Part shown: one piece after another, positions 54,501 through 57,500 of the stretch
Layout: each line of letters starts with the position of its first letter
How positions within the stretch are numbered: position 1 is the first letter of the stretch
Source: Octopus vulgaris
Lineage: Eukaryota
Length of the DNA stretch: 64,000 bases
NCBI GenBank assembly: GCA_951406725.2
Contig: OX597833.1
Location: 20,646,001-20,710,000, forward strand
Direction: 5' to 3'
Notes under the pieces: model-generated
The model's input: only the letters and a program-made list of their open reading frames with translations
What the model was told of the DNA's origin: nothing
Databases searched by the model: none
Position numbers and translations under genes: made by a program

Positions 54501-57500
54501 ATAATAAACTTTGGTTGTAGGACAAACAACAAATTTAAGGTCATCCACTTAACATATCGCATCTCGAACATTTAATCACATATAAAGAAAGAATACATAG
54601 AATATGGATGCATAAAATCACAGAAGATGAAACAATATTTCATTTAGACAAACATATATAAAAAATGTGAGTACAGTCTATCACAATTGAAAATTAATAT
54701 TTCAGCATCTAAGAAAAAAATTTTTTAACATTATAACACCTAGAATAATAAATATATAAAAATACGTATATATAAGAAACATAAATATATAAGGTATAGA
54801 TAAAAGTTCATTGATTAAGAATTTTTTACGATTAAAAGTTACTTTTTAAGATAAGGGGAAACCTATTAAGAAAAGCCAGTGTCCAAGCAAAAAAAAAAAA
54901 AATGTATTTACAGTCCCTATGGCTATTTCAGGGGTTCATCAGCGTATTTAATGCACAAGGGTGCATTATGATAATGACTCCTTCGTTAGGGGAAAATAAT
55001 AAAACATCACATACCAAGGCGAGACTTCTTTAGAAAAAAACCTTTTTCTTTTCTAAAGAAATGATGAATGTAAAAATGTAAAATAGTGCCAGTAGATAAG
55101 ACGAAACATAAACTCACATTGTCCTTGAACTGGTCAGGTCTCCATCTATGAGCCAGGTGAAGGGCAAACATGAGCTGGTCGGCCTTAAATAATGACCGAC
55201 ACACTGACTTGTAGACAAGGTGTAACAGGTGCTTCTGCAGAAGTTTGATGCGAGACTCTGTGTTGTTGGTGCTTTCATCCTGTGACCGGGAGGAAACATA
55301 CAATATACAATATAATGGACGTTAGGGATTAGAATATCTTTCATCGTAGGTTTGCTTGACTGAGGCTGACTTAGAAACCAAACAAACTATAACCTCAACA
55401 ACAACAGCAAACTTAGTCTTGACCCTTTAGCATTTAAACTGGACATATCCGGCCCAAATATTTTACATGTTACGGCAATGTACTTACATAGCAAGTGATT
55501 TGATCTGAGATCGTGTGCTGGAACGAAAACAATTGCAGCGTGGAAGGTGTTTGTAAGCCATTTAAGAAACACACAAAAGCCGTTCGATTCACTTCAACAT
55601 TTAAGTTTAATTTGTCAAAATATTTTCGTCAGCTGAGATGCAGCATGGATTTTTGTCAGTGAACAGGTCATGGTCTTATAGCGACGAAAATATTTTGACA
55701 AATTAAACTTAAATGTTCAAGTGAATCGAACGGCTTTTGTGTGTTTCTTAAATGGCTTACAAACACCTTCCATGCTGCAATTGTTTATTTTACATGTTTT
55801 ATGGTGAAAACAACCAAATCTGGCTTCTCACACCTACCCTACAATGTCACTCTAAAAATATAAAATAAAAAATAAATGTGCCCCTTGAAAGCCTAGCCAG
55901 GCTCATGGGCCTGGTTTCCCGGTTTCTATGGCATATGTGTTCTGCAGCTGGATGGGACGCCAGTCCATTGCAGCATTACTTATTTTTGCCAGCTGAGTGG
56001 ACTGGAGCAACGTGAAATGAAGTGTTTTGCTCAAGAACACAATGCGTCGCCCGGTCCAGGAATCGAAACCACAATCTTACGATCATGATGCTGACACCCT
56101 AACCACTAAGCCACGTGCCTCCACACTCTAAAAATATACACTCATTGAAATCTCAAAGCCACAAGATAATTCAGAATTAATTCAAAACAATGTAAATAAA
56201 CATACATTTGATAGAATAAATCTGAATGATTGAGGGTTAAATAACTAAATAAACTTCAATGATTATCAGGTGATTGCGACAGTGACTTCTAGCACAATCT
56301 CCGTTCTCAAAAATAAAGGTTTGCACTTACGTAGATCGCCTGCAGAGTTCTTTGGAAAAGACGTAGAAATGAACTTAAGCTGAAACAATACATATTGTTG
56401 ATCTTCACTAAGTCCTTTATCACAAAATACAGTCGACTGCCATTCTCTGCAAGGGGTAGATAGGTGTTTCTTTCCTGCAAGGAAAACAAAAGAAGCATCA
56501 TAGTCATCACCATCAAATAGGTTGTATAAAGGTGTTTGTTAGCCAGGCTGTCTGTATTGTTTTACTCAATAGGTTTTAAATTGACTTAAGGGTAAGGTCA
56601 GGGGTCAACTGCCATAAAGATTAAACTGACCAATGATAATATATATCTTTAGATAGCAAGAAAACTATGAAAGATATCTATATATCTATATCTATATATA
56701 ACCAAGAAAAAAGCAACAAGAATGAATTAGTAGTCTAGTACAATTGTTTCATACCAAGAACAATTTTATTTAAAGCTGCAAGTATTGCAGCAAATACAAA
56801 TGTCCAGTATTCATCAGCTAAATCATATATATGTTTTCCAGACATCCTAGGGAGTGTGTCTATCCTCATGAAGTATTAGGAATGAGTTCTATGAAATTTA
56901 AAGTCAAATTATAAGCAGACTCAAATTGCTTTCTAATGATGCACAGTTTTATAAAAAGTTTTTAAAAAGATTGTTAACTTCCCAGAGAAGGTGAATCCAT
57001 CCATAAAAATGCAGATATAATTTCCGGAGACATGAGGAAAGCTGTTGATCACACAGCGGTTCATTTCACAACTAAGCTGTTGCAAACAGCTTATATCTAT
57101 ATATATATAGTCATTATAGATATAGGGTGAAATATAATTAATTTAGTAAAATCAACAAATTTCACTTAGTAGTATTTTGGTATGGAAAAGGACCATATTC
57201 GGTAAAAATTTATACAATTATAATAATAAGGGTTTTTTGCAACAAGTTGCTTAAATCACATACCGAAAATTTTAGAAATAGCAGCCAAAAGACTACTATT
57301 TCCTTTTACTACAAAAATAAGTCTCCACAGACAACAATATTTGTAACTCACATATGGCAAAAAAAGAAGAAAAATAATGAAATCACAGAGTCTTCGGTTA
57401 AAGGAAATAGTAGTCTTTTGGCTGCTATTTCTAAAATTTTTGGTATGTGGTTTAAGCAACTTGTCGCAAAAAACCCTTATTATTATAATTATATCTATCT

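What the first reader, a model, noticed from the sequence alone, without database searches (positions are those of the whole stretch)
55652..55702. Repeated hammerhead-ribozyme family with a swapped G3-C8 core pair
Seen: the palindromic elements at about 51.9, 53.3 and 55.7 kb share TTTGTCA-GTGAACA-(G)-GTCGC-9 nt loop-GCGAC-GAAA-ATAT-T-T-TGACAAA. This is the layout of a minimal type I hammerhead: 7-bp stem I, stem II closed by G-C, GAAA, a palindromic 4-nt loop III, then UH. The CUGANGA box instead reads GUGAACA. Established: positions 3 and 8 form a Watson-Crick pair in the active hammerhead, a compensatory G3-C8 swap can rescue activity, and Penelope-like elements carry minimal type I hammerheads thought to cleave as dimers. 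Inference: the double change is covariation shared by independent insertions, not decay. That points to a functional non-canonical ribozyme family that CUGANGA-based searches would miss.
Basis: partly seen in the sequence, partly recalled or inferred. Interest (0 to 1): 0.82.

Follow-up and report, generated by a model that had tools for sequence, protein, structure and literature searches.

The report
Swapped-core hammerhead in octopus Penelope retroelement
Thousands of copies of a Penelope-type jumping gene in this octopus genome carry a small hammerhead-shaped RNA whose two paired core letters are swapped (G-C instead of C-G), and related elements keep that pair in three different forms, so it is likely a working but untested natural variant, although the three copies in this window are damaged.

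Summary
The motif is real. It is the minimal hammerhead in the pseudo-LTR of a Penelope-like element (PLE) with reverse transcriptase, Zn-linker and GIY-YIG, 56 nt upstream of the ORF. G3-C8 is the family's master state: 5,645 of 6,144 genome-wide matches, 0 C3-G8. It is therefore inherited, not covariation between insertions. The 51.9 and 53.3 kb copies are one fragment duplicated inside a Helitron-like carrier, and all three window copies are broken in stem I or II. Real covariation appears between families: ten related PLE families all keep a Watson-Crick 3-8 pair (C-G 5, U-A 3, G-C 2). An older octopus lineage, about 70% identical, keeps G3-C8 while loops and stems change compatibly. Against efficient cleavage: 5' ends of copies cluster about 59 nt upstream of the cut site, not at it, and a small G3-G8 sub-lineage also spread. 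Engineered G3-C8 partly rescues a PLE hammerhead in print. I found only U3-A8 reported as natural, but one key paper was not held. This scan noted G3-C8 before in phages and protist PLEs. Cleavage is untested. Verdict: new variant of a known kind.

The parts
55652..55702 (+). Minimal type I hammerhead motif with G3-C8 core (G3 55659, C8 55664, predicted cut after 55695); stem II decayed in this copy (55670-55671)
   Evidence: family form
55636..55786 (+). Direct arm of a short PLE insertion: starts at the family's 5'-end hot spot (an extra G precedes it), holds the hammerhead and the first codons of the ORF (ATG at 55752)
55471..55630 (-). Inverted, 5'-truncated arm of the same insertion, carrying the extra ~47-nt PLE 'tail'
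55460..55470 (.). Target-site duplication, left copy (11 bp)
55787..55797 (.). Target-site duplication, right copy
51890..51940 (+). Second copy of the motif, stem II broken; passenger inside a Helitron-like repeat
53271..53312 (-). Third copy, truncated before the 3' strand of stem I; part of a local inverted duplicate of the second
51202..53149 (-). Young ~1.95-kb non-autonomous Helitron-like repeat (TC start, hairpin plus CTAG end, in TA repeats; Helitron end features recalled, not tested against a library) that carries one PLE palindrome (about 51696-52018)
   Evidence: 97-98% identical over ~1.96 kb to 6 of 7 loci compared, the seventh in two pieces; shared flanks
53271..53999 (+). Partial inverted duplicate of that carrier, 98.7% identical to 51188-51931

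Best explanation
The motif is the minimal hammerhead in the pseudo-LTR of a Penelope-like retrotransposon family whose master copies carry a G3-C8 core pair in place of C3-G8; it is likely kept by selection as a weakly self-cleaving ribozyme that would need a dimer or the element's protein, while the three window copies are decayed and predicted to be inactive. Shown: the element has one ORF (RT, CX3CxxC linker, GIY-YIG); the motif sits 56 nt before the start codon and again after the ORF; most genomic copies are short direct-plus-inverted fragments in AT-rich sites with target-site duplications. Inferred: RNA starts about 59 nt upstream of the cut site, and reverse transcription starts inside the first 30-90 nt of the ORF, as reported for the anole PLE. 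That gives the two fixed 3' ends and the short palindromes. Inferred: two hammerheads, 4.3 kb apart in a full-length transcript or in trans, pair through the AAUAUU palindrome to form helix III and cut after U17. Such cleavage would process tandem or read-through transcripts and does not seem needed to make an insertion.
For: PLE identity: ORF and motifs, Pfam GIY-YIG above cut-off, two direct G3-C8 motifs 4,261 nt apart around the ORF in L313, inverted arms, tail and TSDs. Master state: 5,645 of 6,144, 0 C3-G8; no change of 3% or more at 3 or 8 among listed rows in runs from four organism labels (6 rows not shown). Homologous motif behind the ORF in related families with C3-G8 or U3-A8: 10 of 10 Watson-Crick at 3-8 (permutation 0.0004; 0.007 after collapsing to 7 lineages), while five control offsets pair in 1-4 of 10; stems I-III also covary. 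Family A is sister to a C3-G8 family (SH-aLRT 93, quick tree). Older lineage C (38 matches, control 0) keeps G3-C8 in 18 of 29 decayed copies, with different N7, loop II, a sixth stem II pair and a 2-nt palindromic loop III. Subfamily-level changes: 0-1 of 42 core or stem sites against 16 of 142 others (Fisher p 0.013-0.064). The motif is outside the coding sequence. In print: C3G/G8C partly restores a PLE hammerhead, which needs protein (PMC11167929); the swap is the one rescuing double change in the box (PMC9901934).
Against: No cleavage data. 5' ends: 39 of 89 arms start at -56 to -63 and only 2 within 3 nt of the cut, so the inserted templates were uncleaved. About 43 of the first 100 non-C8 copies are G3-G8. 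Of 20 fetched, 19 belong to one older subfamily and 2 have G8 in both arms, so a mismatched source also transposed; this weakens the selection test. The sister family B and L161 carry A9C, which suggests a relaxed core in this clade. The predicted isolated helix III duplex is marginal (-0.2 kcal/mol). In 59 of 100 arms an antisense arm lies just upstream, and the window palindrome folds into one long hairpin that would bury the motif. G3-C8 has arisen once here (A and C are one lineage), so it is one evolutionary event.
Confidence: 0.65

Rival explanations
1. The fold is kept but no longer cuts at a meaningful rate. It is retained as a structural or sequence element (protein-binding site, 5' UTR structure, or internal-promoter sequence about 23-35 nt after the inferred start site), and G3-C8 only preserves the fold.
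For: Inserted copies come from uncleaved RNA; hammerhead mutants do not affect insertion of the anole PLE in vitro (PMC11167929); variant cores are frequent in this clade (A9C in 2 of 10 families); G3-G8 sub-lineage; D. virilis Penelope has an internal TATA-less promoter (PMC2377424 abstract).
Against: The 3-8 pair is a tertiary contact of the active hammerhead and has no obvious use outside it, yet it is Watson-Crick in 10 of 10 families; U16.1-H17 and the palindromic loop III are kept too.
Confidence: 0.25
2. Two unselected substitutions in one ancestral master happened to be complementary, and the family spread regardless, so G3-C8 is a frozen accident in a dispensable motif.
For: One origin only; two random changes at 3 and 8 are complementary fairly often; hammerheads may merely ride on PLEs (discussion in PMC8557442); the selection test is borderline (p 0.013-0.064).
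Against: Lineages A and C differ at about 30% of aligned positions (158 of 225 identical), yet both keep the whole core and change stems and loops only compatibly; a dispensable motif should have eroded over that distance.
Confidence: 0.09
3. The palindrome is a MITE-like DNA element and the hammerhead look is a chance by-product.
For: Long inverted arms; two window copies ride in a DNA-transposon-like carrier.
Against: Variable inversion junctions, asymmetric tail, about 10-bp TSDs, linkage to an RT/GIY-YIG ORF, homologous hammerheads in related families, 0 of 5000 chance hits.
Confidence: 0.01

Closest known systems
Minimal hammerheads (min-HHR) of metazoan Penelope-like elements (Cervera and de la Pena 2014, PMC4209133)
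   Same: In pLTRs; extra nucleotide between 9 and 10.1; G10.1-C11.1; palindromic 15.2-16.2/loop 3; mostly single truncated copies, or close pairs on opposite strands; predicted dimer cleavage.
   Different: Core pair is G3-C8; that paper's text reports C3-G8 and one U3-A8 covariation (Schistosoma). Its supplement file 1 could not be searched.
Poseidon element of Anolis (PAc; Frangieh et al. 2024, PMC11167929)
   Same: Hammerhead at the pLTR-ORF junction; 3' ends of insertions inside the ORF start with an optional tail; AT-rich targets; uncleaved RNA is the insertion template.
   Different: There G3-C8 is an engineered partial-rescue mutant and the ORF starts inside the hammerhead. Here it is the natural state, the ORF starts 56 nt downstream, the tail is about 47 nt, and the protein has the Neptune/Nematis-type Zn linker.
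Natural hammerhead core variants (Perreault et al. 2011, PMC3088659)
   Same: Compensatory change at the 3-8 pair.
   Different: Section read names only U3-A8 as natural covariation; their pipeline rejected core variants in repeats.
Neptune/Nematis-type EN+ PLEs (as described in Craig et al. 2021, PMC8557442)
   Same: C-terminal GIY-YIG, CX2-5CxxC linker, partial tandems, inverted 5'-truncated copy, (TA)n preference.
   Different: Exact clade not tested against reference sequences; the octopus families listed in that supplement are Naiad and Hydra types, not this one.

Membership tests
EN+ Penelope-like element | Single ORF with RT and C-terminal GIY-YIG endonuclease | tested here: met
   YVDD RT motif and YIGET motif in one frame; Pfam PF01541 23.1 bits, cut-off 22.6; no Pfam RT model hit
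EN+ Penelope-like element | Pseudo-LTRs in direct or inverted orientation, 5' truncation, tail at one end | tested here: met
   L313 direct pair 4,261 nt apart; inverted arms and ~47-nt tail
Neptune/Nematis-type PLE | CX2-5CxxC linker before GIY-YIG | tested here: met
   CX3CxxC in L092, L093; definition from PMC8557442
Neptune clade | Phylogenetic placement with reference Neptune RTs | not tested
   Tree holds no named reference elements
Minimal type I hammerhead of PLEs | Stem I and stem II with G10.1-C11.1, extra nucleotide after A9 | tested here: met
   Family form: 7-bp stem I, 5-bp stem II; 45 of 100 unbiased arms pass the descriptor; broken in the three window copies
Minimal type I hammerhead of PLEs | GAAA, palindromic loop III, U16.1-H17 | tested here: met
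   GAAA ATAT T T in family A; 2-nt palindrome in lineage C
Canonical hammerhead consensus | Literal CUGANGA box (C3, G8) | tested here: not met
   GUGAACA; 0 C3-G8 copies in the family context. Filed as a variant, not as a canonical member
Hammerhead ribozyme (structure) | Watson-Crick pair between positions 3 and 8 | tested here: met
   G-C here; C-G, U-A or G-C in 10 of 10 related families
Hammerhead ribozyme (activity) | Site-specific self-cleavage after N17 | not testable with these tools
   Only contigs, no raw RNA reads, were offered; genomic 5' ends show no pile-up at the site
Rfam hammerhead models | Match to a curated covariance model | tested here: inconclusive
   No hammerhead hit in the window or in 7 loci, but the C3-G8 relatives L162, L168, L178 are missed as well

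The most novel reading that the evidence does not exclude
A natural, catalytically active G3-C8 hammerhead has been fixed and kept through at least two waves of retrotransposition in an animal genome (over 5,600 copies). One PLE clade uses three Watson-Crick identities at the 3-8 core pair and also tolerates A9C, so the natural hammerhead core is more flexible, and counts from CUGANGA searches lower, than published.
Probability: 0.5. Interest if true: 0.68.

Novelty: new variant of a known kind. Interest (0 to 1): 0.52.

Why it matters
The C3-G8 pair is treated as nearly invariant, and the papers I could read report only U3-A8 as its natural alternative. A high-copy animal family fixed for G3-C8, beside close relatives with C3-G8, U3-A8 and A9C, is natural covariation evidence for this tertiary pair. 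It also gives a ready series of natural constructs for the open question of whether PLE hammerheads must cut at all. Descriptor-based ribozyme counts miss such families. It does not reveal a new mechanism.

Tried and rejected
Rfam: no hammerhead model hits the window or 7 loci including canonical relatives; uninformative. Naiad idea (a PLE group said to lack canonical hammerheads): rejected, the endonuclease is C-terminal. Coding constraint on G3/C8: an open frame runs through the motif in one subfamily, but the ORF start homologous to family B lies 56 nt downstream; rejected. Cleavage footprint in DNA: none (only the L091 reference worked in that script, and Helitron passengers were flagged imperfectly, 9 there against 12). 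The 5'-end hot spot sits at a sequence like a 3' splice site, but no matching donor was found in the L091 3' UTR. 19 of 32 short arms that keep the AG have a G in front where full copies have C or T (counted), which fits a capped start better; neither reading was tested on RNA. RNA evidence: no RNA holder listed on record, only contigs. Related loci: none in genome contigs or viral contigs. Of 40 metagenome loci, 8 gave a clear motif behind the ORF, L170-172/174 and L185 gave degenerate ones, and the rest were too short or gave none. A loose genome-wide G3-C8 pattern was at noise level (260 against control 322), though one hit led to lineage C. The careful tree did not finish; the quick tree is used. 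MAFFT alignments A2 and A3 were out of register, so pairs were counted in a script. Earlier-findings look-ups by place and by sequence were empty.

Full report
Observation. The layout is at 55652-55702 as stated. The window is G000:C20 of a 2.8-Gb genome; a protein that NCBI names as Octopus vulgaris matches it at up to 100%. None of the three window copies has the full quoted string. The 55.7 kb copy has a damaged stem II, the 51.9 kb copy a broken stem II, and the 53.3 kb copy also lacks the 3' strand of stem I. None passes a strict descriptor. The two that were scored against shuffles fold no better than chance, whereas a family copy from L091 folds as stem I plus stem II, z -3.1. The 51.9 and 53.3 kb copies lie in a 745-bp inverted duplicate at 98.7% identity, within a ~1.95-kb Helitron-like repeat that recurs at 97-98% elsewhere. 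They are not independent.

What the element is. Thirty loci matching the 55.5 kb palindrome share fixed outer ends, a ~47-nt extension on the inverted arm only, variable inversion junctions, AT-rich sites and, in several, ~10-bp target duplications. Longer copies continue upstream through a microsatellite-rich UTR into an ORF with a YVDD reverse transcriptase, a CX3CxxC linker and a GIY-YIG domain, on the same strand as the motif. L313 has two direct copies of the motif 4,261 nt apart around the ORF. L312 shows the ORF starting 56 nt after the predicted cut. This matches the PLE architecture in PMC8557442 (passages and supplement tables) and PMC11167929 (first half of the text). The 3' ends of insertions fall within the first 30 codons of the ORF, as the anole work predicts.

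Within the family. Exact-pattern counts in one 21-nt context: G3 5,975, of which 330 lack C8; non-G3 169; C3-G8 0. So 5,645 of 6,144 are G3-C8. A downstream 21-mer has 10,324 matches. Contigs from four organism labels list no change of 3% or more at either position (6 rows hidden). G3-C8 is the inherited master state, and the rare variants are mostly single changes. One exception: about 43 of the first 100 non-C8 matches are G3-G8, several times more than the mirror change at position 3. Of 20 fetched, 19 are from one older subfamily, several share further marks and 2 have G8 in both arms, while others keep C8 in the second arm. A small mismatched sub-lineage therefore also spread.

Between families. 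A young sister family B (52% protein identity, many 99% copies with a 1,312-codon frame) has a hammerhead at the homologous place with C3-G8 but A9C, and an alignable 3' end. Of 40 metagenome relatives, 8 show a clear motif just behind the ORF: C3-G8 in L162, L165, L168, L178, L180 and U3-A8 in L161, L164, L166; five more are degenerate. A pattern that left positions 7-9 open found 38 copies (control 0) of mostly an older octopus lineage C. It has G3-C8 in 18 of 29, N7 = C, a sixth stem II pair, other loop II sequences and a 2-nt palindromic loop III, and is about 70% identical to family A. Across ten families (L180 left out as a near twin of L178) the 3-8 pair is Watson-Crick in all: C-G 5, U-A 3, G-C 2. 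Permutation gives 0.0004, or 0.007 for seven collapsed lineages; control offsets pair in 1-4 of 10. Stems I, II and III also show several pair types. Kinship inflates these figures. The quick protein tree puts A beside B (SH-aLRT 93) among C3-G8 and U3-A8 families, so G3-C8 looks derived and single in origin.

Selection and cleavage. Among 88 arms chosen by a downstream anchor (12 Helitron passengers removed from 100), sites that differ between subfamilies number 0-1 of 42 in core and stems against 16 of 142 elsewhere, including 3 of 9 in loop II (Fisher p 0.013-0.064; sites called by eye). This is modest support, weakened by the G3-G8 sub-lineage. 5' ends do not mark the cut: 39 of 89 arms begin at -56 to -63, and 2 within 3 nt of the site. 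19 of 32 short arms have a non-templated G before the AG at that hot spot, which I read as a cap signature of a transcription start (inference from recalled behaviour of retrotransposon RTs). So the RNAs that inserted were uncleaved, as reported for the anole element. 59 of 100 arms have an antisense arm just upstream, and such transcripts would fold into long hairpins. One RNA-like run shows many A>G and T>C differences absent from the other three runs, which resembles A-to-I editing, but no DNA run of that organism was laid.

Mechanism. Shown: location, anatomy, master state, covariation across families. Inferred: weak cleavage after U17 as a dimer through AAUAUU or with protein help, serving transcript processing rather than integration (0.65). 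Rivals: retained non-cleaving structure or promoter element (0.25); frozen accident (0.09).

Comparison with print. PMC4209133 (first half of the text; supplement file 2 searched, file 1 not searchable) defines this motif class and reports U3-A8. PMC3088659 (passages and section 8) names only U3-A8 as natural. PMC11167929 shows partial rescue by engineered C3G/G8C in a PLE hammerhead; PMC9901934 passages show the same swap as the only rescue in the box; PMC3884650 mentions an engineered G3-C8 variant. Also seen: passages of PMC6765202, PMC6155905 and PMC11014351, the abstract of PMC2377424 and part 1 of bioRxiv 2026.07.22.740005; none reports natural G3-C8 in what I read. Searches turned up no such report. 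Lunse et al. 2017, the most likely prior source, and Przybilski and Hammann 2007 were not held, so the novelty claim is provisional. Seven unchecked notes of this scan describe G3-C8 candidates in phages and protist PLEs; I did not test them.

Verdict. A real feature: a PLE minimal hammerhead with a naturally fixed G3-C8 core, well supported by comparison of families but unproven as a catalyst, seen in this window only as decayed copies. New variant of a known kind; interest 0.52.

Noticed in passing
L131-L160, L305-L310 (e.g. L307:4133): Young sister PLE family B, 99% identical copies with an intact ~1,312-codon frame and tandem arrays 4.6 kb apart; its hammerhead has C3-G8 but A9C, as does unrelated L161.
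   Followed up: partly
window 55635-55640; L091 about 8160: Strong 5'-end hot spot of family-A copies ~59 nt upstream of the cut site, often with an extra G; the place resembles both an initiator and a 3' splice site.
   Followed up: partly
L347-L366: Small G3-G8 (unpaired) sub-lineage within the older subfamily, roughly 140 copies by extrapolation from the first 100 listed.
   Followed up: partly
L091:8135-8368, run X7: 13 A>G and 5 T>C difference sites in one RNA-like run against 3 A>G in each other run; looks like A-to-I editing of the palindromic RNA; no matched DNA run.
   Followed up: no
window 51202-53149 and 53271-53999: Young Helitron-like composite repeat that captured a PLE palindrome and other repeats, here with a local inverted partial duplicate.
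   Followed up: partly
window 40883-41001 (-): 5S rRNA match, 81 bits (gathering 38); isolated among repeats, possibly a pseudogene or 5S-derived SINE head.
   Followed up: no
window 9528-9818: Long near-perfect inverted repeat (about 100-bp arms), probably a MITE-like element.
   Followed up: no
L068:2142, L070:2783, L101:1219, L118:1953 and 2411: Canonical C3-G8 hammerhead-like motifs from other repeat families in the same genome.
   Followed up: no
L338: Old copy with a stem II like lineage C but a loop III and tail like family B and U3-G8; may represent the state near the A/B split.
   Followed up: no
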